A stretch of DNA of 64,000 bases from sequence record PV357172.2; one strand, 5' to 3'. Positions within the stretch are counted from its first letter, which is position 1. Every line of letters begins with the position of its first letter. Shown in pieces: positions 1,253 through 43,053 of the stretch. The position numbers were made by a program, and so were the translations under genes. The stretch is from a phage. The notes under the pieces are model-generated. The model was not told the DNA's origin. It saw nothing but the letters and a program-made list of their open reading frames with translations, and ran no database searches.

Positions 1253-2074
1253 ATGGGTAAATTACAAAAACAAATACTACCACATATAGATTATATTCGA
1301 GAAATTATAGAGTATAATCCTTATACTGGTAAATTATTTTATAAGCCTAATAAATACAAGAATAAAACTTGGCACACCCTATATGCTGGGAGAGAAATAT
1401 GTAGTAAGAACTCTGATGGGTATATCAGAGTTAGTTTGCTCTTAGATAATAAACCCACAATTATTTATGGACACCGAATAGCGTGGTTGCTCCATTATGG
1501 TGAAGAGCCTCCTTATATGATCGACCATATAAATACCATACCGTGGGATAACAGAATTGTTAATCTAAGAGAGACAAATTTTAAGTTAAATAGGATTAAT
1601 ACTAATAAAACCGTAGGTGTAGAACTCCTCCCCGAGGGTTTTGTGTATAGCATTACATTAGGTGGAAAGTTTTTCGTATCTCCTGGCTTCACCACTTTCG
1701 AACAAGCTAAAGGGGAAAGAGAAAAACTAGTAAATGGTTTATGTAATGCAGAAATTGGGAAGCAGACCAATATTCTAATAGACGATGTTAGAGATCTACC
1801 TGAAATGTCCATTATTTGTCGTACAGTTATAGGTGCGCTGGAACTATCAGATATGTTTAGTTTTACTGGTTCCTACCTATTTATGGACTCAGATCTAGGA
1901 GACCCAGAAGTACAAGGAAAAGACTTATTAGATTATATACTCTTTTTAGGTCAAAGACCTTTGAAAGTAGTTCTAGTAACATCCAACCCTGTTGACGCAG
2001 AGTACATGAGAGGTACTCTTACGTCTTATGGTTATCGAGAAAATCCCAATAGGTTAGAATATGACCTATTTTAA
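1253..2074 (+). CDS. HNH homing endonuclease
   Basis: Motif GHRIAWLLHYGE...IDHIN...DNRIVNLRETN typical of the HNH family; sits beside the tRNA cluster. Confidence 0.8.
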   Translation: MGKLQKQILPHIDYIREIIEYNPYTGKLFYKPNKYKNKTWHTLYAGREICSKNSDGYIRVSLLLDNKPTIIYGHRIAWLLHYGEEPPYMIDHINTIPWDNRIVNLRETNFKLNRINTNKTVGVELLPEGFVYSITLGGKFFVSPGFTTFEQAKGEREKLVNGLCNAEIGKQTNILIDDVRDLPEMSIICRTVIGALELSDMFSFTGSYLFMDSDLGDPEVQGKDLLDYILFLGQRPLKVVLVTSNPVDAEYMRGTLTSYGYRENPNRLEYDLF

Positions 2075-9257: not shown

Positions 9258-9839
9258 ATGCACGGAATATCCTTACCAATTCCAGGGTTTGAGGAGTACT
9301 TAGTAAGTTTGGATGGGTTAGTATTTAGTATCAAATCAAACAAAATACTAACCCCAATAACCAGTAATTACGGATACTTATCTATACGTCTCCATAAAAA
9401 TGGTCAACAGAGAAATACCGGTGTACATAGGATTTTAGCATGTGCATTTAAGAAATTACCAAGTCTAGACTCTGAACTAGAAGTTGACCATATTAACACA
9501 GACATTACTTATTGGGGTCTTAATAACTTACAAGTGCTCACAAAAGAGCAGCATCTAGAAAAGACTTTAAAAGATAAAGGATTTAGTAAACTAAACCATG
9601 ATAATTGTTGTAAGGATTGTGGTAAAGCTATTTCTTTAAAAGCTGAAAAATGTCAGGAGTGCTCTTCACATAAACCAAAAGATATCTCTATAACTAAAGA
9701 AATAATCGAGGTTACAGTAAGAGAGCTAGGCTGGTCAGGTGCAGGGAGAAAGTTAAGTTATTCAGATAATGGGTTGCGTAAAAGATACACTTCTTTAGGA
9801 GGCAATCCTAAAGAACTTAAAAAGTTAAAGGTACTATAG
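9258..9839 (+). CDS. HNH homing endonuclease
   Basis: LEVDHINTD...NNLQVLTKEQH HNH motif plus C-terminal Cys-rich region; stop codon overlaps the start of tRNA-Asp. Confidence 0.8.
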   Translation: MHGISLPIPGFEEYLVSLDGLVFSIKSNKILTPITSNYGYLSIRLHKNGQQRNTGVHRILACAFKKLPSLDSELEVDHINTDITYWGLNNLQVLTKEQHLEKTLKDKGFSKLNHDNCCKDCGKAISLKAEKCQECSSHKPKDISITKEIIEVTVRELGWSGAGRKLSYSDNGLRKRYTSLGGNPKELKKLKVL

Positions 9840-11928: not shown

Positions 11929-12513
11929 ATGCAGTTTGTACCAATAAAAGATGCACCAGGGTATTTAGTAAATGAAACAGGGGATGTGTTATCTACATTT
12001 ACTAATAAAATCTTATCAAGATATATAGTTGATGGGTACCCTGCTGTAAAATTACAGATAAATGGTAAGCAAACTTCGGTACTTATACACCGAATTATTT
12101 CTCATGTATTTGGGGACTTATATAATCTATTTGACCCTGAATTAGAAGTAGATCACAAGGATAGAGATAGGCTGAATCTATCTAAAGATAATCTTCAAGT
12201 TTTATCAAAAATAGAACATCAGAAGAAAACTAATAAAGATAATGGATGGTCTGATAGTAGAGTACCTTGCCCCTTATGTGGAAATCTAATGCTTCAGAGA
12301 TCAGTAACATGTACAAATTGTAAGCCAAAACCTACAGGAAAGTTAATAAAACCAGAATTGTCCTTAGAAGACATAACTGAAAAGGTTTTATTAATGGGGT
12401 GGGTTAAGGCAGCTAAAGATCTAGAAGTATCAGAGTCCACTTTACGTAGACGATATACTAAACTAACCGGATTAAGCCCGAAAGTATTAACAGAACAACG
12501 GAAAAGCAAATAG
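11929..12513 (+). CDS. HNH homing endonuclease
   Basis: HRIISHVFG...LEVDHKDRDRLNLSKDNLQVL HNH motif plus CxxC pairs; 3' end overlaps tRNA-Ser. Confidence 0.8.
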   Translation: MQFVPIKDAPGYLVNETGDVLSTFTNKILSRYIVDGYPAVKLQINGKQTSVLIHRIISHVFGDLYNLFDPELEVDHKDRDRLNLSKDNLQVLSKIEHQKKTNKDNGWSDSRVPCPLCGNLMLQRSVTCTNCKPKPTGKLIKPELSLEDITEKVLLMGWVKAAKDLEVSESTLRRRYTKLTGLSPKVLTEQRKSK

Positions 12514-26939: not shown

Positions 26940-27346
26940 CACAAGAAAGATTAAAAGAGTTATTTGAATACCGCCCGGAAACGGGCGAGTTTATAAGGAA
27001 AGTCAGTAGAGGACGAGGTAAAGCAGGTAGTATTGCTGGTAGTCCTGATAGGGATGGTTATATATTTATTGGGATAAATAGAAAAAGATATGCAGCCCAT
27101 AGGTTAGCCTTTTTGTACATGGAGGGGTATATTCCAAATCTAGTACACCACTTAAATAATATAAGAAAAGATAATAGATGGTGTAATTTAAAAGATTGTA
27201 CGTCCCAAGAAAATAATCGTAGCAAAATCGCTCAATCTAATTCGGGGTACTTAGGAGTTACCTGGAAAAAGATCGACAACAATGGAGAGTCCAGGCCAGA
27301 AGCGCCGAAAGCATTACAGTACACGGAGGCTATTTTAGGTATCTAG
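26933..27346 (+). CDS. HNH homing endonuclease
   Basis: YAAHRLAFLYMEG...HHLNNIRKDNRWCNL HNH motif. Confidence 0.75.
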   Translation: MLTQERLKELFEYRPETGEFIRKVSRGRGKAGSIAGSPDRDGYIFIGINRKRYAAHRLAFLYMEGYIPNLVHHLNNIRKDNRWCNLKDCTSQENNRSKIAQSNSGYLGVTWKKIDNNGESRPEAPKALQYTEAILGI

Positions 27347-34308: not shown

Positions 34309-34509
34309 CTATTCACGGTAGACACGCCAGCCGTCTAGCTTCCATTCTTCCCCCTTGCGAATATTGAAAAACCAATCATTAAAATTGTAACCATCTTCTG
34401 ACATGATCACGCCGTTTTCTTTCATGTACAAAAATTCATTGCTAGTAAAATATTGATTACTAACTTTAAAACCTTGTTTCATTTTTTCTAGTGCTTCATC
34501 TTTAGTCAT
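34309..34509 (-). CDS. small protein with DUF2829-like pattern (possible Tad2-like sponge)
   Basis: EALEKMKQGFKV...DW...EEW...GW pattern resembles DUF2829 proteins as I recall them; AGGTGG SD. Confidence 0.4.
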   Translation of the reverse strand: MTKDEALEKMKQGFKVSNQYFTSNEFLYMKENGVIMSEDGYNFNDWFFNIRKGEEWKLDGWRVYRE

Positions 34510-34850
34510 TGCGCCACCTTTCGAAACGCTGTTTCAATACTATCCGCAGTGGATTGAATATACGCGCCTTTCATTATCAGGCGCTCGGTACATACCTTGC
34601 GGAAAATATTAATAAAATCATCTTCGTTTTCTGCAATTAATGCTTCACCCATAACCTGAACGTCACAAGATGCAAAGGTCAAAAATTGAAACGCTAGTTC
34701 ACGGGCAACGACCGCATTAATTTTATAGTGCGCCTTGCCCTCATAAATATTAATAACGCCCTTATATTCAGGGGAAAGCTGATTTAAATAGTTTGCTAAT
34801 AATGCCGGACGGCAATTAGCAACAAAACGATTGCCCTCATAAATTACCAT
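34506..34850 (-). CDS. hypothetical protein (114 aa)
   Basis: ATG at 34850 with GGAG SD. Confidence 0.5.
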   Translation of the reverse strand: MVIYEGNRFVANCRPALLANYLNQLSPEYKGVINIYEGKAHYKINAVVARELAFQFLTFASCDVQVMGEALIAENEDDFINIFRKVCTERLIMKGAYIQSTADSIETAFRKVAQ

Positions 34851-34851
34851 T

Positions 34852-35064
34852 TTATAACACTCCACGAAAGGCCGCGTAAAAGGTGGCAAAATGTTTAACC
34901 GTCTCAGCGATCACGTTGCCCCGTTTATCGAATTTCTTTTCTGTAACACGAAAGGCGTTTTTGTTGCGTGCTACATATTCGATTTTACAATCTGGACGCT
35001 CGAACGTGTTAACGTCCACCAGCTTAAAGCCTTTCGAACGTGTAAGGGAAACGTTACGGATCAT
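34852..35064 (-). CDS. hypothetical basic protein (70 aa)
   Basis: AGGAG SD; translationally coupled. Confidence 0.5.
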   Translation of the reverse strand: MIRNVSLTRSKGFKLVDVNTFERPDCKIEYVARNKNAFRVTEKKFDKRGNVIAETVKHFATFYAAFRGVL

Positions 35065-35066
35065 TT

Positions 35067-35255
35067 TTATTCTCCTTTACTAGTCATGCAGCCCAGCAGA
35101 TAAGAAAAAACGGCGATACCCGCGCCAATAATAACCATTGGTTTTGTATTTACTAAACCACAATAGGAATCCTGAATACCATAAGCGGTGGCGAAAAGAG
35201 TCAGAATAGCGCCCAAGATACCTGCTAGAATAGCTCGAAAAATAACCATTTTCAT
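35067..35255 (-). CDS. small membrane protein (63 aa)
   Basis: ATG 35255 after TTTCTAGGAGAATGAAA; two hydrophobic helices. Confidence 0.45.
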   Translation of the reverse strand: MKMVIFRAILAGILGAILTLFATAYGIQDSYCGLVNTKPMVIIGAGIAVFSYLLGCMTSKGE

Positions 35256-35296
35256 TCTCCTAGAAATTAGAGGCGAAAGTAACGCCCAGTTATTGG

Positions 35297-35524
35297 TTAC
35301 ATTAAAACGATTTTGGCGGCTTGTTTTTTGGTGCAATGTTCCGCTTTCAATTCATCCAGCAAAAATCCAGCTGTTTGCTGATCAATCTTGTCATTATTGT
35401 AAAGCTCCTGAATGGTAACATAAGTTTTAGCAATCCCAAATTCAGAAACCATAACGCTTACAATAGCGGGAACGGATACCCATTCCATACCATTAAAAAT
35501 TGCAGAAGATGATGAATGTACCAT
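35297..35524 (-). CDS. hypothetical protein (75 aa)
   Basis: AGGAGG SD after TTTCTAGG motif; first gene of the minus-strand cassette. Confidence 0.5.
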   Translation of the reverse strand: MVHSSSSAIFNGMEWVSVPAIVSVMVSEFGIAKTYVTIQELYNNDKIDQQTAGFLLDELKAEHCTKKQAAKIVLM

Positions 35525-35646
35525 TTTAACGCCTCCTAGAAATCAGGGAAAATTTTCAATCCACCGTTTTGGTGTAAAGGCATTATAACAAAAAAGGCCA
35601 CCATAAAAGGCGACCTTTACAAAACTTTACATTAGGTTAATTATTA

Positions 35647-35760
35647 CTCGCTTTCGGTGCTAACGGTAAAAGTAGAAATATCAATACCTTTCACCATTTC
35701 CAGCATTGCCGCCACCTGGCCGCCGCGTTGGGTCTTTACTTTAATATTACCCCACAGCGT
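35647..35760 (-). pseudogene. 38-codon gene remnant (3' end only)
   Basis: Open frame between stops encoding ...TLWGNIKVKTQRGGQVAAMLEMVKGIDISTFTVSTESE with no start or RBS; a hairpin and T-run follow on the minus strand. Confidence 0.3.
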
Positions 35761-35825
35761 TTAGCTCGTTAGAAAGCGATTTAGGCCGCTTATTTTGGGC
35801 ATCATTATAGTATGCTTCCCATTTA

Positions 35826-35935
35826 CCCTGTATATTTATACAGTGGAATAACCTGTGGATAAGTCTGTGTAAAAGTGCTGTAAAGCCTTCCTATTGTGTC
35901 AATCAAATTTACAAAATGTATAAACCTGTGGATAA
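35826..35935. repeat. right arm of inverted repeat carrying DnaA boxes
   Basis: Reverse complement of the left arm: CTGTATATTTATACAG palindrome and TGTGGATAA twice (35854, 35927). Confidence 0.7.
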
Positions 35936-36126
35936 CTTAAATGATAGTGGTTCTCACTAACTAATTTATACAGTTATTATATAACAAAATATAGTTAGTT
36001 GGCTAATAGGATTTTAAAGTGATTATGAGTCTGCTAAGTAAACCTGAAAAACTCATTAGGTAGTCTGCTAATGATTTTGATATAATATAATAGAGATTAA
36101 ACTAATAACATAAGGAAACAATAACA

Positions 36127-36645
36127 ATGGGTCTATTTAAAGATATAGATTATTCGCTTGCTAATGATAACTTTTATTATGATGAAACATCCCCATCATT
36201 TCTAAGATGGAAAGTACAGAAAGGTAATAGTAAGGTGGGGGATATTGCAGGGCATTATAGTAACACAGGTTACTATCGAGTAAAGTTAGCAGGCGAACAA
36301 TACGCAGTGCATAGAATAATATGGGTATTATTTAATGGTGAGATTGATAGCAATCTAACAATCGATCATAATGATCGTAACCGTGCTAATAATAACATTA
36401 ATAATCTTCGCTTAGTAGATCATAAGCAGAATACGAATAACAAGAAAGATTATAAGCGTGCTAATAAGTTGCCTAAGCATATCTATTATAATGGTTCTAG
36501 AGTTGATAATAACGGAAGAAACTATTTGCGCGCTATAGTTAAAGATCCTACTAGTAACAAAAGTGTTAGTAAATCAGGTTATGATTTACAAGAGTTATTA
36601 TTATGGGTAGAAACTAAAAAAGCTGAATTTGGGATTGTCAATTAA
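36127..36645 (+). CDS. HNH homing endonuclease
   Basis: HRIIWVLFNGEIDSNLTIDHNDRN...NNLRLVDHKQN HNH motif. Confidence 0.8.
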   Translation: MGLFKDIDYSLANDNFYYDETSPSFLRWKVQKGNSKVGDIAGHYSNTGYYRVKLAGEQYAVHRIIWVLFNGEIDSNLTIDHNDRNRANNNINNLRLVDHKQNTNNKKDYKRANKLPKHIYYNGSRVDNNGRNYLRAIVKDPTSNKSVSKSGYDLQELLLWVETKKAEFGIVN

Positions 36646-37033
36646 TTTATTTTATAAATTAACGCAATGCCACTTGATTTTAAAAAGTCAATACCTTTTC
36701 CAACTATTTTTCAATTTTGCTTTTGTTAAATATTTGTTAAATCGAAAATGGGCCGCCTAAAACGCCCTAGAAAGCGGTAAAATTTTCAGGTATGCCATTG
36801 CATTGCCTACCCTCGTTTATCGCTACCACGAGCTTTCTAGATTTTGTCAATATCCCCAAAGCAAATATAAATGAAAAAATTACTTGCCTATCTGCTTGGT
36901 TTTATGGTATTCACGCGCCCGTTCCTTTTAATTTAGGTGAGCGCCGCACGCCGTCCGGTGAAACTGTATTAGCCATATTGCTAATAATTTTGGTATAATA
37001 TAATAACCAAATGAAACTAATAGGAGAATATTA

Positions 37034-37375
37034 ATGATTGAGCTAACAAAAGATATTGATTTAGAAACTGTGCTAGATAATCTTTACTATGATGAAACTA
37101 GTCCCAGTTGCCTACGGTGGAAAGTATCCCGCCCCGGTTGCGCCCTTCATGGGGTAGCAGGTACTAAAAGAAAGGATGGTTACTGGTCTGTACAGCTCAA
37201 TAAAGAGCGTTACCTAGCGCATCGTATCGTGTGGTTATTATTTAATTATAAAATAGATAGCAAACTAGTAATTGATCATATTGATCGTAACCCTAGTAAT
37301 AATTTTATTGATAACTTACGGTTAGTAACTCAAGCCGAAAACAACCAAAATAAGGGAGGCTATAGAAAGGCGTAA
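37034..37375 (+). CDS. HNH homing endonuclease (short paralog)
   Basis: HRIVWLLFNYKIDSKLVIDHIDRN...DNLRLVTQAEN; upstream leader similar to that of 36127. Confidence 0.75.
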   Translation: MIELTKDIDLETVLDNLYYDETSPSCLRWKVSRPGCALHGVAGTKRKDGYWSVQLNKERYLAHRIVWLLFNYKIDSKLVIDHIDRNPSNNFIDNLRLVTQAENNQNKGGYRKA

Positions 37376-37616
37376 AACTTACGTTTCTTTACAAAAATAA
37401 GGTTGCGCCCTTTTCGGGAATCTCCTATTATTTATCACGTAGGGCGGCAATGACGAACTACACGGCGGGAAGTTTACCGCCGCGCTCTTTAAAAATTGGG
37501 TACATCTTAAAGCCTATCGGCGGTAAACTTATTCATTATAAGGAATCGACGATATGAAACAAACTTTATTGATCACTGGCAAGCCTAGCAAGGCACTAGA
37601 TAGCAAAACAAAAAAT

Positions 37617-37650
37617 TTGTTGACAGTAGCGCAAAATTCTGTAAAATGGC
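37617..37650 (+). promoter_or_regulatory. near-consensus sigma70 promoter (TTGACA, about 17 bp, TAAAAT)
   Basis: Lies inside track ORF 37554-37757, which I regard as non-coding; a second TTGACA-type promoter sits at about 37745-37775. Confidence 0.5.
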
Positions 37651-37986
37651 GATTCAAGCAATATTTGCAAGGTCGCCAGCAAGGTTTAGAAATGATCTGG
37701 CGAAACATTATGATTGACCTGAAGGAAAATCATAAAAAATCTCAAAAAATTGTTTGACAGCCTAGCCGATAGGTTTTAAGATGTACCCAGTTCGAAAAGA
37801 GCGATAACTTGATAAAATTTGACGGTCGGCACTTACCATAATGTGCCCCGCCCCCTAACGGGATATAGCGGCCTACGTGGAGTTCTTTAAATTGATTATA
37901 TTGGCGAGCGGATTGTTACTTATTACCTGCTGTTACTTTCTAGCAGGTAATGCGGAACAATCCCCAAATAACTAGGAGTTTATATT

Positions 37987-42513: not shown

Positions 42514-43053
42514 TTAACTGTTTAATTGGGCAACGTCTGGTATACTTCCTTTGAACATCTCCTGTATTGCAAAGTCACCATGAAATGTCCTTCTTAGTAA
42601 ATTTGCATAATTTACGGCATCTTCTAATCCGCTATAGGGAAAGTACTTAGTAGTACCCCTTATCAGCCCCTGTTTATCATGTAATCTTACCATCCACTTC
42701 TGAAGTTCTTTATGCCATGTAACATTTAGATAGCCTGATGATGCTCTTGAGATTCTGCCATTATGATTATTCTCTGTAATTGAAGCCTCTCTTAAATTTG
42801 ACCATCTATTATTTAGTTTATTCCTATCTATGTGGTCTACACATTCCTCTGGCCATCTATTCTCCATAATAACAAAAGCTACTTGATGTGCATAAGCTTT
42901 AAACCCTCGATACTTAAGCTGCCTATATCCCCTATTTAAAGTACCTGCTTCTTTACCCTTACGATTGCCTCTTTTCCAGGTAAAAACTCCGGTTTCGGGA
43001 TCATAAGCAAATACTTCTTGTATTTCCTGTATGTTTAAATTATTCTTCATCAC
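42514..43053 (-). CDS. HNH homing endonuclease
   Basis: HQVAFVIMENRWPEECVDHIDRNKLNNRWSNLRE HNH motif. Confidence 0.75.
   Translation of the reverse strand: MMKNNLNIQEIQEVFAYDPETGVFTWKRGNRKGKEAGTLNRGYRQLKYRGFKAYAHQVAFVIMENRWPEECVDHIDRNKLNNRWSNLREASITENNHNGRISRASSGYLNVTWHKELQKWMVRLHDKQGLIRGTTKYFPYSGLEDAVNYANLLRRTFHGDFAIQEMFKGSIPDVAQLNS

What the first reader, a model, noticed from the sequence alone, without database searches (positions are those of the whole stretch)
36060..37375. Tandemly duplicated HNH endonuclease cassette in the pre-early region
Two HNH genes (36127-36645 and 37034-37375) share motif order and very similar promoter/leader sequences (TTTTGATATAATATAATAG... versus TTTTGGTATAATATAATAACC...), indicating a duplication that included the regulatory region. 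The second copy is shorter (113 aa) and may be decaying.
Basis: seen in the sequence. Interest (0 to 1): 0.4.

Follow-up and report, generated by a model that had tools for sequence, protein, structure and literature searches.

The report
Two adjacent HNH homing-endonuclease cassettes
A T5-like phage carries two related "selfish" HNH nuclease genes side by side in the DNA it injects first; they are old relatives that arrived separately, not a fresh duplication, and the short one is intact rather than decaying, so this is an ordinary feature in an unusual combination.

Summary
Window 36127-36645 (172 aa) and 37034-37375 (113 aa) are both Pfam HNH_3, I-HmuI-like nucleases. They are 52% identical in protein and share a promoter core (25/27 nt, 31/38 nt) found nowhere else in the window.

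The window is the pre-early (first-step-transfer) region of a T5-like phage.
- Gene 1 is T5 hegG (99.4% aa; cassette 98.5% nt).
- Gene 2 is the 113-aa HNH of phages Shivani, SSP1 and LmqsSP1 (98-100% aa).

Each cassette (promoter, ribosome-binding site, ORF) occurs alone, at its own fixed site, in other phages. mar004NP2 lacks both. I found no other record or contig with both.

Each gene's nearest relatives lie in other phages. HNH1 is closest to alleles at its own site (63-69%). HNH2 is closest to a 113-aa Klebsiella-phage gene (74-78%). Third codon positions between the two copies are only 47% identical, so the paralogy is old.

HNH2 is not decaying. Its length is conserved across two genera, dN/dS is 0.02-0.06 and the catalytic residues are intact. 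It lacks the beta-beta-beta-alpha, AP2-like C-terminal domain of HNH1.

The surrounding sequence is mosaic, which suggests hegG was recombined into an HNH2-bearing backbone. Best reading: two stacked free-standing homing-endonuclease cassettes. Interest is low.

The parts
36038..36636 (+). HNH1 (hegG-type) cassette as an indel unit: promoter, leader and ORF. HNH1-less phages carry an unrelated filler of ~88 nt at this point. The last 9 nt of the ORF (GTCAATTAA, 36637-36645) are shared with the empty alleles.
   Evidence: blastn and alignments against Shivani, SSP1, LmqsSP1, mar004NP2 and the ERR14030889 contig. 98.5% nt identity to T5 over window 35959-36640; 99% over 36038-36636.
36066..36092 (+). 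HNH1 promoter core, TGCTAATGATTTTGATATAATATAATA. It has an extended -10 (TGATATAAT, 36078-36086). The ribosome-binding site AAGGAAA lies just upstream of the ATG.
   Evidence: Sequence. Unique pair in the window. T5 annotates a promoter at the equivalent place upstream of hegG. Nearly invariant upstream of all site-1 alleles. Promoter function itself was not tested.
36127..36645 (+). HNH1 ORF, 172 aa, the ortholog of T5 hegG (T5.010, 'P-TflVII'). It comprises an N-terminal beta region, an HNH_3 beta-beta-alpha-metal core, and a C-terminal beta-beta-beta-alpha (AP2-like) domain at about residues 119-168.
   Evidence: 99.4% aa to T5. Sequence match to I-HmuI 1U3E. AlphaFold model with pLDDT 90 whose best PDB match is I-HmuI.
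36646..36960 (.). Spacer between the cassettes. It is backbone sequence shared with all T5-like phages examined, whether or not they carry either cassette, and lies at the edge of T5 'Repeat Region 1'. No gene is annotated here in T5.
   Evidence: Repeat-region coordinates are from bioRxiv 10.1101/866236.
36961..37378 (+). HNH2 cassette, a 418-nt insertion: 73 nt of promoter and leader, the 342-nt ORF, and 3 further nt. At this point the empty site of mar004NP2 has 10 nt (GCATTTTGTC) and T5 about 11 nt.
   Evidence: Alignments and junction sequences. 100% identical to the ERR14030889 and ERR15003728 contigs, and 97-99% to LmqsSP1 and Shivani, while the flanks are 66-98% identical.
36979..37005 (+). 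HNH2 promoter core, TGCTAATAATTTTGGTATAATATAATA, with an extended -10 (TGGTATAAT). The ribosome-binding site AGGAG lies about 8 nt before the ATG.
   Evidence: the scan reports TAGCCA-18-TATAAT with an upstream TG. Conserved in all HNH2 copies and partly in the Klebsiella phage GZ8 cassette.
37034..37375 (+). HNH2 ORF, 113 aa: N-terminal beta region plus HNH_3 core only. It ends 3 nt before the right junction of the cassette.
   Evidence: 98-100% aa identity to the HNH of Shivani gp009, SSP1 gp120 and LmqsSP1. dN/dS 0.017-0.06.

Best explanation
The locus holds two separate, free-standing HNH (I-HmuI-like, HNH_3) homing-endonuclease cassettes, not a duplication made in this genome. Each is a compact unit of extended -10 promoter, ribosome-binding site and ORF. 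They sit at two fixed sites about 0.3 kb apart in the large untranslated repeat region of the first-step-transfer (pre-early) DNA of a T5-like phage.

Cassette 1 is T5 hegG. Cassette 2 is the 113-aa 'Shivani-type' HNH. They are old paralogs of one promoter-plus-gene unit.

Proposed mechanism (inferred from what is known of phage free-standing homing endonucleases such as T4 Seg/Mob and T5 F-TflI/II/IV):
1. The gene is transcribed by host RNA polymerase as soon as the first-step DNA enters the cell.
2. The enzyme nicks or cuts the cassette-less allele of a co-infecting relative near the insertion site.
3. Recombinational repair copies the cassette, and some flanking sequence, into that genome.

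The present combination most likely arose when a roughly 1.2-kb T5/VAH1-like segment carrying hegG was copied into a backbone that already carried HNH2. That backbone resembles the ERR14030889 contig. The conversion tract ended in the spacer between the two sites.

Shown: homology, cassette boundaries, presence/absence polymorphism, mosaicism, purifying selection and fold. Inferred: promoter activity, cleavage specificity, homing, and the direction of the transfer.
For: (1) Identity of the region and genes.
- It is the T5 pre-early region. Gene 1 is hegG at 99.4% aa and 98.5% nt.
- Gene 2 is the 113-aa HNH of about 15 phage records and of 7 contigs that encode exactly this protein, one of which is LmqsSP1 itself.

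(2) Four allelic states of the locus were seen.
- hegG only: T5, VAH1 and about 45 metagenomic contigs.
- HNH2 only: Shivani, SSP1, LmqsSP1, SHSML-45 and the Logan/ENA contigs.
- Neither: mar004NP2.
- Both: this window only.

(3) Clean junctions. HNH2 is a 418-nt insert set against a 10-nt filler.

(4) The cassettes are far more conserved than their flanks: 98-100% against 62-98%.

(5) Mosaic backbone.
- Window 34506-35520 is closest to the ERR14030889 contig (95-100%).
- Window 35711-36636 is closest to T5/VAH1 (92-99%, against 74-77% for that contig).
- Window 36961-37560 is again closest to the ERR14030889 contig (97-100%).

(6) Relationships. HNH1 groups with site-1 alleles and HNH2 groups with the Klebsiella Sugarlandvirus gene, which sits at the same site with a homologous right flank.

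(7) Both genes look functional. There are no internal stops, the catalytic columns are intact, and HNH2 dN/dS is 0.017-0.06.

(8) Fold. The HNH1 model (pLDDT 90) best matches the I-HmuI homing endonuclease.

(9) Literature.
- The HNH gene is an insertion that splits Repeat Regions 1 and 2 and is absent from most T5-like phages (bioRxiv 10.1101/866236).
- hegG is dispensable, is present in fewer than 15% of Demerecviridae genomes, and is toxic to E. coli with signs of DNA damage (bioRxiv 10.64898/2026.04.02.716235).
Against: No cleavage site, nicking activity or unidirectional transfer has been shown for hegG or for HNH2, here or in the papers I read.

The empty allele at site 1 is not a clean empty site. 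It carries an unrelated filler of about 88 nt and a weak echo of the promoter's upstream part (AGYCTGCTA). Site 1 therefore behaves more like a set of alternative alleles than like a simple insertion.

HNH2 lacks the C-terminal DNA-binding domain that I-HmuI-like enzymes use for target recognition, so its sequence specificity is uncertain.

High conservation of a cassette could also reflect selection for a function useful to the phage, rather than recent spread.
Confidence: 0.78

Rival explanations
1. Recent tandem duplication in this genome or lineage of an HNH gene with its promoter, followed by truncation and decay of the second copy.
For: The two units are collinear, lie in the same orientation about 910 nt apart, and share promoter, leader and motif order.
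Against: The copies are only 58% identical in coding nucleotides, with third positions at 47%.

Each copy has a 97-100% identical ortholog that occurs alone in other phages, and each has closer relatives elsewhere than its neighbour.

The sequence between the copies is ordinary backbone, also found in phages that carry one cassette or neither.

The short copy is under strong purifying selection and has the same 113-aa length in another genus.
Confidence: 0.03
2. Ancient tandem duplication in an ancestor of T5-like phages, followed by differential loss. On this view the window simply retains the ancestral two-copy state by vertical descent.
For: The paralogy is old and includes the promoter. 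HNH2 occupies the same site in Tequintavirus and in Sugarlandvirus, so at least that insertion could be ancient.
Against: No other genome or contig searched holds both cassettes.

The hegG segment is 99% identical to T5 and VAH1, while the neighbouring backbone is closest to a different lineage whose own sequence across that segment is only 74-77% identical. That points to recent import rather than long vertical co-residence.

The patchy distribution across species fits gain better than dozens of independent precise losses.
Confidence: 0.08
3. Assembly chimera. The source sample held both a hegG-type phage and an HNH2-type T5-like phage, and the assembler threaded through both alleles, creating an arrangement that exists in no real genome.
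For: The arrangement is unique. The local sequence switches between two backbone types within about 1.3 kb. The exact HNH1 protein of the window is not on record anywhere.
Against: The T5-like tract is not T5 itself. It lacks T5.011 yet is T5-like on both sides of that deletion junction, and its hegG differs from T5 at 4 nt. It therefore does not look like a splice of known genomes.

Natural recombination among T5-like phages produces exactly such mosaics. A chimera would also need two switches, both inside short shared stretches.
Confidence: 0.07
4. Domesticated pre-early nucleases. One or both enzymes serve the phage, for example by damaging host DNA or by attacking co-infecting competitor phages before second-step transfer, rather than acting purely as selfish homing genes. 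This can coexist with the main explanation.
For: Both genes have pre-early-type promoters on first-step DNA. HegG expression in E. coli is toxic and causes nucleoid supercompaction (bioRxiv 10.64898/2026.04.02.716235). HNH2 is under strong purifying selection.
Against: hegG is dispensable for T5 growth and does not degrade bulk DNA; A1 alone does that. Both genes are absent from most relatives, which is unusual for a beneficial takeover function.
Confidence: 0.2

Closest known systems
T5 hegG (T5.010, 'putative H-N-H endonuclease P-TflVII')
   Same: HNH1 is its ortholog: 99.4% aa, the same 172-aa length, the same promoter, and the same site between the T5.011 side and Repeat Region 1.
   Different: In the window hegG sits in a backbone that lacks T5.011 and that also carries a second HNH cassette 0.3 kb downstream. 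T5 has an empty site there, with about 11 nt in place of 418.
113-aa HNH endonuclease of Salmonella phage Shivani (gp009), Shigella phages SSP1 (gp120) and SHSML-45, and Salmonella phage LmqsSP1
   Same: HNH2 is the same gene at the same site: 98-100% aa, 93-99% nt over the whole cassette including the promoter.
   Different: Those phages have no hegG-type gene at site 1. LmqsSP1 labels the gene 'baseplate wedge protein', which the HNH_3 match contradicts.
I-HmuI (PDB 1U3E), the HNH nicking homing endonuclease of Bacillus phage SPO1
   Same: Both window proteins match its HNH core by sequence (E = 8e-6 and 3e-5). The HNH1 model's best structural match is 1U3E (Foldseek probability 1.00).
   Different: The PDB entry describes I-HmuI only as an HNH homing endonuclease bound to DNA. 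From my own knowledge, it is intron-encoded and ends in helices plus a helix-turn-helix. HNH1 and HNH2 are free-standing. HNH1 ends in a beta-beta-beta-alpha module, and HNH2 has no C-terminal module at all.
Free-standing homing endonucleases of T-even and T5 phages (T4 SegA-G and MobA-E; T5 F-TflI, F-TflII, F-TflIV)
   Same: Small nuclease genes inserted between conserved genes, with patchy distribution among close relatives. For SegB, preferential inheritance of the cassette and its flanks in co-infection has been shown (PMC2330249).
   Different: The T5 F-Tfl genes lie in the tRNA gene cluster, not in the pre-early DNA. Activity and homing are unproven for hegG and HNH2.
HNH_3 + AP2 (PF00847) phage endonucleases
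   Same: Many more distant homologs of HNH1 carry Pfam AP2 after HNH_3 and align collinearly with the HNH1 C-terminus. The predicted three strands plus a helix matches the AP2 topology as I recall it.
   Different: The HNH1 C-terminus itself gives no Pfam hit even at E = 10. 'AP2-like' is therefore an inference, not a demonstrated membership.

Membership tests
HNH_3 / I-HmuI-like His-Me finger endonucleases | Pfam PF13392 match above the gathering score | tested here: met
   55.9 bits (HNH1) and 61.3 bits (HNH2) against a cut-off of 24.8.
HNH_3 / I-HmuI-like His-Me finger endonucleases | Conserved catalytic and metal-binding D-H ... N ... N ... N columns of the beta-beta-alpha-metal motif | tested here: met
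   D80, H81, N89, N93 and N102 (HNH1 numbering) are invariant in 29 homologs. The aligned residues are present in HNH2. Both align to the I-HmuI 'DH...N...N' segment.
HNH_3 / I-HmuI-like His-Me finger endonucleases | Fold similarity to a solved member | tested here: met
   The HNH1 model (pLDDT 90.2) has 1U3E as top PDB hit: E = 3.7e-4, probability 1.00, TM-score 0.44. The low TM-score probably reflects the different C-terminal domain and domain arrangement. HNH2 was not modelled.
HNH_3 / I-HmuI-like His-Me finger endonucleases | Mg2+-dependent DNA nicking or cleavage | not testable with these tools
   The only indirect evidence is that HegG is toxic and causes nucleoid compaction in E. coli (bioRxiv 10.64898/2026.04.02.716235).
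Free-standing homing-endonuclease gene cassette | Presence/absence polymorphism at one fixed site between otherwise collinear relatives | tested here: met
   Four states were observed: hegG only, HNH2 only, neither, both. HNH2 always lies at the same junction.
Free-standing homing-endonuclease gene cassette | Cassette history differs from backbone history: higher conservation than the flanks, and a patchy distribution | tested here: met
   Cassettes are 98-100% identical where flanks are 62-98%. HNH2 occurs in about 15 phage records, the site-1 cassette matches 54, and 463 records match the surrounding region.
Free-standing homing-endonuclease gene cassette | Own expression signals within the mobile unit | tested here: inconclusive
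   An extended -10 consensus and a ribosome-binding site lie inside both cassettes. T5 annotates a promoter upstream of hegG. No transcript data were available.
Free-standing homing-endonuclease gene cassette | Site-specific cleavage of the cassette-less allele and biased inheritance in co-infection | not testable with these tools
   Requires enzyme assays and phage crosses.
In-situ tandem gene duplication | The two copies are each other's closest relatives | tested here: not met
   HNH1 against HNH2 is 53%. HNH1 against site-1 alleles is 63-69%. HNH2 against Klebsiella phage GZ8 is 74% (N-terminal region; 78% by tblastn).
In-situ tandem gene duplication | Nucleotide similarity of the units above background, including non-coding parts | tested here: met
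   blastn E = 1.6e-18. Promoter 31/38 identities against a background maximum of 23/38.
Decaying gene copy (pseudogene) | Disrupted frame, relaxed selection, or length that varies among orthologs | tested here: not met
   No internal stops. 113 aa in all seven copies compared, including Klebsiella phage GZ8. dN/dS 0.017-0.06.
AP2-type DNA-binding domain (C-terminus of HNH1 only) | Pfam PF00847 match | tested here: not met
   No Pfam hit at E up to 10 for four C-terminal domains of this clade. Support comes only from collinearity with PF00847-bearing homologs and a predicted beta-beta-beta-alpha topology.

The most novel reading that the evidence does not exclude
The stacking may be functional rather than accidental. 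Two I-HmuI-type enzymes would be expressed together from near-identical pre-early promoters, before the rest of the genome enters the cell. They might act as a pair. One possibility is that two strand-specific nickases, or the domain-less HNH2 working with the DNA-binding HNH1, together make double-strand breaks in the first-step DNA of competing T5-like phages, which would be a pre-injection exclusion weapon. Nothing here tests this. The evidence only fails to exclude it.
Probability: 0.05. Interest if true: 0.55.

Novelty: new member of a known kind. Interest (0 to 1): 0.2.

Why it matters
The finding mainly corrects the record. The locus is a stack of two known, independently mobile HNH cassettes in the T5 first-step-transfer DNA. 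It is neither a new duplication nor a dying gene.

It has modest value for three reasons:
- It gives base-level cassette boundaries and the matching empty-site sequences for hegG and for the 113-aa HNH. These are the substrates needed to test homing, which has never been shown for either gene.
- It is a natural recombinant in which a conversion tract appears to end between two homing sites 0.3 kb apart.
- It shows that a 113-aa HNH_3 protein without a C-terminal DNA-binding domain is maintained by selection in two phage genera.

Tried and rejected
- **Recent duplication.** Rejected on divergence, on relationships and on each copy occurring alone elsewhere.
- **Decay of HNH2.** Rejected on dN/dS and on conserved length.
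- **Generic T5 promoter consensus as the cause of the promoter similarity.** Rejected. No other site in the window matches within 3 mismatches. The neighbouring strong promoter-like sites at 37620-37647 and 37754-37782 are of a different type, with a TTGACA -35 hexamer.
- **Similar target sequences at the two insertion sites.** By eye, the flanks of the two sites show no similarity.
- **Other genomes with both cassettes.** None found. The two sets of phage records carrying each cassette do not overlap. No neighbouring HNH gene appears in 7 contigs that encode exactly this HNH2 protein (one of them LmqsSP1) or in about 45 hegG contigs. IMG/VR holds only SSP1 and SHSML-45 as close HNH2 relatives. 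An exact gapped pattern spanning both cassettes matched the window but nothing in the metagenome, viral or genome collections. That pattern tolerates no mismatch, so its sensitivity is limited.
- **Exact look-up of the window's HNH1 protein.** Not on record.
- **Pfam on the C-terminal domains and on the N-terminal 60 aa.** No hits.
- **First tree script with bootstrap.** It timed out. The neighbour-joining tree therefore has no support values, and the grouping rests mainly on the pairwise identities.
- **Mutual exclusion of the two cassettes.** Not claimed. With about 12% and 5% occupancy in about 460 records, roughly 3 doubles would be expected by chance, so finding none is not significant.
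Full report
**What is in the sequence.** ORFs at 36127-36645 (172 aa, HNH1) and 37034-37375 (113 aa, HNH2) lie on the + strand. Both match Pfam HNH_3 (PF13392) at 55.9 and 61.3 bits, against a cut-off of 24.8. Both also match PHROG HNH families.

The proteins align without gaps over 112 residues at 52% identity, E = 2e-39. At the DNA level the two units are collinear with a constant offset of 910-913 nt. This covers a 122-nt coding block at 74%, a 38-nt promoter block at 31/38, and smaller blocks. Unit-against-unit blastn gives E = 1.6e-18 and 1.8e-11.

The motif TGCTAATRATTTTGRTATAATATAATA occurs only at 36066-36092 and 36979-37005 in the whole window, even with three mismatches allowed. The observation, including the shared promoter and leader, is therefore real and not due to chance.

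The divergence is nevertheless deep. Coding nucleotide identity is 58%, with third codon positions at 47%.

**Where we are.** The region matches the left terminal repeat, the first-step-transfer (pre-early) DNA, of phage T5 and of hundreds of Tequintavirus genomes.

In T5 the homologous stretch reads as follows: T5.012, T5.011 (both on the opposite strand), an annotated promoter, hegG (T5.010, 'putative H-N-H endonuclease P-TflVII', 172 aa), T5.009, T5.008, T5.007, A2, T5.005, A1. No deposited phage is closer than about 90-93% over 24 kb, so the window comes from an undeposited T5-like phage.

**Each gene has a near-identical counterpart that occurs alone.** HNH1 is hegG: 99.4% aa to T5, and the cassette is 98.5% nt identical to T5 and 98.2% to VAH1. 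HNH2 is the 113-aa HNH of LmqsSP1 (100% aa), SSP1 (99.1%), and Shivani and SHSML-45 (98.2%), plus several short records. It is also encoded on seven contigs that carry exactly this protein, one of which is LmqsSP1 itself.

Against T5 and VAH1, the window has an extra segment at about 36951-37378. Against Shivani, SSP1 and LmqsSP1, it has an extra segment that contains HNH1. mar004NP2 lacks both.

Reading the junctions gives these boundaries:
- HNH2 is a 418-nt insert (36961-37378): 73 nt of promoter and leader, the ORF, and 3 further nt. mar004NP2 has GCATTTTGTC at this point and T5 has about 11 nt.
- HNH1 occupies about 36038-36636, where the empty alleles have an unrelated filler of about 88 nt. 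The last nine bases of the ORF (GTCAATTAA) are shared with the empty alleles.

The 315 nt between the two cassettes is ordinary backbone.

[quoted passage not shown] By coordinate transfer, HNH2 lies inside Repeat Region 1. That preprint lists T5 and Shivani together as carrying the HNH insertion. In fact they carry different paralogs at different sites.

**Not a duplication made here.** I aligned 19 family members from 15 phages.

Within the N-terminal ~113 aa, HNH1 is 63-69% identical to the alleles that occupy site 1 in UTK0008, ESCO30, SP01 and SH9, but only 53% identical to HNH2. HNH2 is 74% identical to the 113-aa gene of Klebsiella phage GZ8 (Sugarlandvirus), and 48-53% identical to everything else. 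By tblastn the Klebsiella genes are 76-78% identical to HNH2.

A neighbour-joining tree groups HNH2 with GZ8, and then with a third paralog that lies downstream of A1 in Shivani, HdH2, UTK0008 and ESCO30. HNH1 joins this grouping only at a short, unsupported branch, while the other site-1 alleles form the rest of the tree (no bootstrap, because timed out).

The GZ8 gene sits at the same site, and the homology runs on into the right flank (window 36989-37500).

The promoter and leader are almost invariant upstream of all site-1 alleles. The HNH2 and GZ8 cassettes share the core TTTG-N-TATAATATA and the AAACTA leader element. The third-site paralog has a different upstream region.

The reasonable conclusion is that a promoter-plus-ORF unit was copied to a new site long ago, before the site-1 alleles diverged from one another. 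The two lineages have since moved independently.

**How the pair came together.** Segment-by-segment comparison shows a mosaic:
- Window 34506-35520 is closest to a 111-kb contig from run ERR14030889 (95-100%). That contig, like the window, lacks T5.011, has HNH2 and has an empty site 1.
- Window 35711-36636 is closest to T5 and VAH1 (92-99%), whereas the ERR14030889 contig is only 74-77% identical there.
- Window 36637-36960 is mixed.
- Window 36961-37560 is again closest to the ERR14030889 contig (97-100%).

The T5-like tract begins near 35600 and runs straight across the T5.011 deletion junction. The donor was therefore a hegG-bearing relative of T5 without T5.011, not T5 itself.

The cassettes are 98-100% conserved where their flanks drop to 62-90%. 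This is the pattern expected if hegG, with roughly 1.2 kb of flanking sequence, was copied by recombination into a backbone that already carried HNH2. The reverse direction cannot be excluded, and neither can an assembly chimera.

**How rare is the double.** No overlap exists between the phage records that carry the HNH2 cassette and the 54 that match the site-1 cassette. No second HNH gene lies next to HNH2 in the 7 contigs that encode exactly this protein, or next to hegG in about 45 contigs. IMG/VR holds only SSP1 and SHSML-45 as close HNH2 relatives.

A gapped exact pattern joining the end of hegG to the HNH2 promoter matches the window, but nothing in the metagenome, viral or genome collections.

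Given occupancies of roughly 12% and 5%, about three doubles would be expected by chance in about 460 records. Their absence is therefore not evidence of incompatibility.

Two family members within one pre-early region is itself common. Site 1 plus site 3 occurs in UTK0008, HdH2 and ESCO30. Shivani has HNH2 at site 2 and, according to a note in the HdH2 record, an HNH identical to HdH2's site-3 gene.

**Is HNH2 decaying? No.** All Tequintavirus copies examined, and the Klebsiella copy, are exactly 113 aa with no internal stops.
- Window against SSP1: 21 nucleotide differences but 1 amino-acid difference, dN/dS 0.017.
- Window against Shivani: dN/dS 0.06.
- Window against GZ8: dS is saturated and dN is 0.20.

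The catalytic D-H...N...N...N columns, invariant in 29 homologs, are present in HNH2.

What HNH2 lacks is the C-terminal third of HNH1. An AlphaFold model of HNH1 (pLDDT 90.2) shows an N-terminal beta region, the beta-beta-alpha core, and then three strands and a long helix at residues 119-168. Its best PDB match is the I-HmuI homing endonuclease, 1U3E. The same match is found by sequence for both proteins.

The C-terminal module gives no Pfam hit. It is, however, collinear with the AP2 (PF00847) domains of many more distant homologs, and from my own knowledge it has the AP2 topology. I therefore call it AP2-like by inference only.

Short forms arose more than once. HdH2 has a 115-aa site-1 allele, and other proteins of 110-115 aa appear.

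**Function.** The published evidence on hegG comes from one preprint (bioRxiv 10.64898/2026.04.02.716235).
- It is dispensable for T5 growth.
- It is present in fewer than 15% of Demerecviridae genomes.
- It is not responsible for bulk host DNA degradation, which needs only A1.

[quoted passage not shown] Free-standing endonucleases such as T4 SegB drive preferential inheritance of their locus in mixed infection (same paper).

By analogy, and given the anatomy above, the most likely mechanism is homing. Early expression from the cassette's own extended -10 promoter would be followed by nicking or cleavage of the cassette-less allele on a co-infecting phage's first-step DNA, and then by repair from the cassette-bearing genome. 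None of these steps has been demonstrated for either gene.

**Verdict.** The locus is a previously unrecorded combination of two known mobile HNH cassettes: a new member of a known kind, of low general interest. It is useful mainly as a defined substrate set for testing homing in the T5 pre-early region.

Noticed in passing
window 35700-35711: The T5.011 gene is absent. It encodes the 37-kDa pre-early protein (Pfam DUF7566) and is reported toxic in E. coli. The junction reads ...CACCATTTCCAGCATTGCCGCCACCTGGCCGCCGCGTTGG.... Phage SP01 and the ERR14030889 contig share the same T5.011-less architecture, so T5.011 also behaves as an indel cassette.
   Followed up: partly
window 35834-35862 and 35907-35935: Two 29-nt direct repeats, each ending in TGTGGATAA, the complement of the DnaA-box consensus TTATCCACA. 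They lie in the stretch that corresponds to T5 Repeat Region 2, which Davison proposes takes part in the injection stop.
   Followed up: no
L088:1268-1777(-), L089:1342-1851(-), L090:6715-7224(+) (not in the window): A third, 169-aa paralog of the same HNH clade sits just downstream of A1 in UTK0008, HdH2 and ESCO30. It lacks the shared promoter. Its ribosome-binding site lies in an inverted repeat (CCTCCAATTA...TAATTGGAGG), perfect in HdH2 and ESCO30 and with one mismatch in UTK0008, which could occlude translation initiation.
   Followed up: no
site-1 alleles in L088-L095 compared with window 36044-36645: Upstream of site 1 the promoter and leader are almost invariant across phages, yet the ORFs behind them are only about 50-70% identical to hegG. 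The ORFs are also mosaic: the C-terminal ...AEFGIVN tail is shared by hegG, SP01, NR01 and NBEco002 despite different N-terminal halves. This suggests module shuffling among alleles.
   Followed up: partly
window 26963-27286 (+), 42754-43050 (-), 1403-1651 (+), 9363-9554 (+), 12031-12225 (+): Weak tblastn matches (28-44% identity, E from 1e-8 to 1e-3) to HNH1 or HNH2. These are probably other HNH genes of the phage; T5 is said to encode nine.
   Followed up: no
public records OR846838.1, OR848616.1 ('Listeria phage LM 4-11-1' and 'LM 4-14-1'); WP_411414726.1 and related ('Enterococcus faecalis'): Records labelled as Listeria phages or as Enterococcus proteins carry sequences 99% identical to these T5-like cassettes, or fall in the 90%-identity hegG protein cluster. 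The likely cause is contamination or mislabelling in the source data.
   Followed up: no
L005:3625-3966 (NC_104259.1, LmqsSP1): The protein identical to HNH2 is annotated as 'baseplate wedge protein', and A2 and A1 carry the same label. This is an annotation error in that record.
   Followed up: no
window 36792-36998 (+): A 68-aa ORF spans the spacer and runs into the HNH2 promoter. No gene is annotated at the corresponding place in T5, although NR01 and one metagenomic contig have small called ORFs nearby. It is probably not a gene.
   Followed up: no
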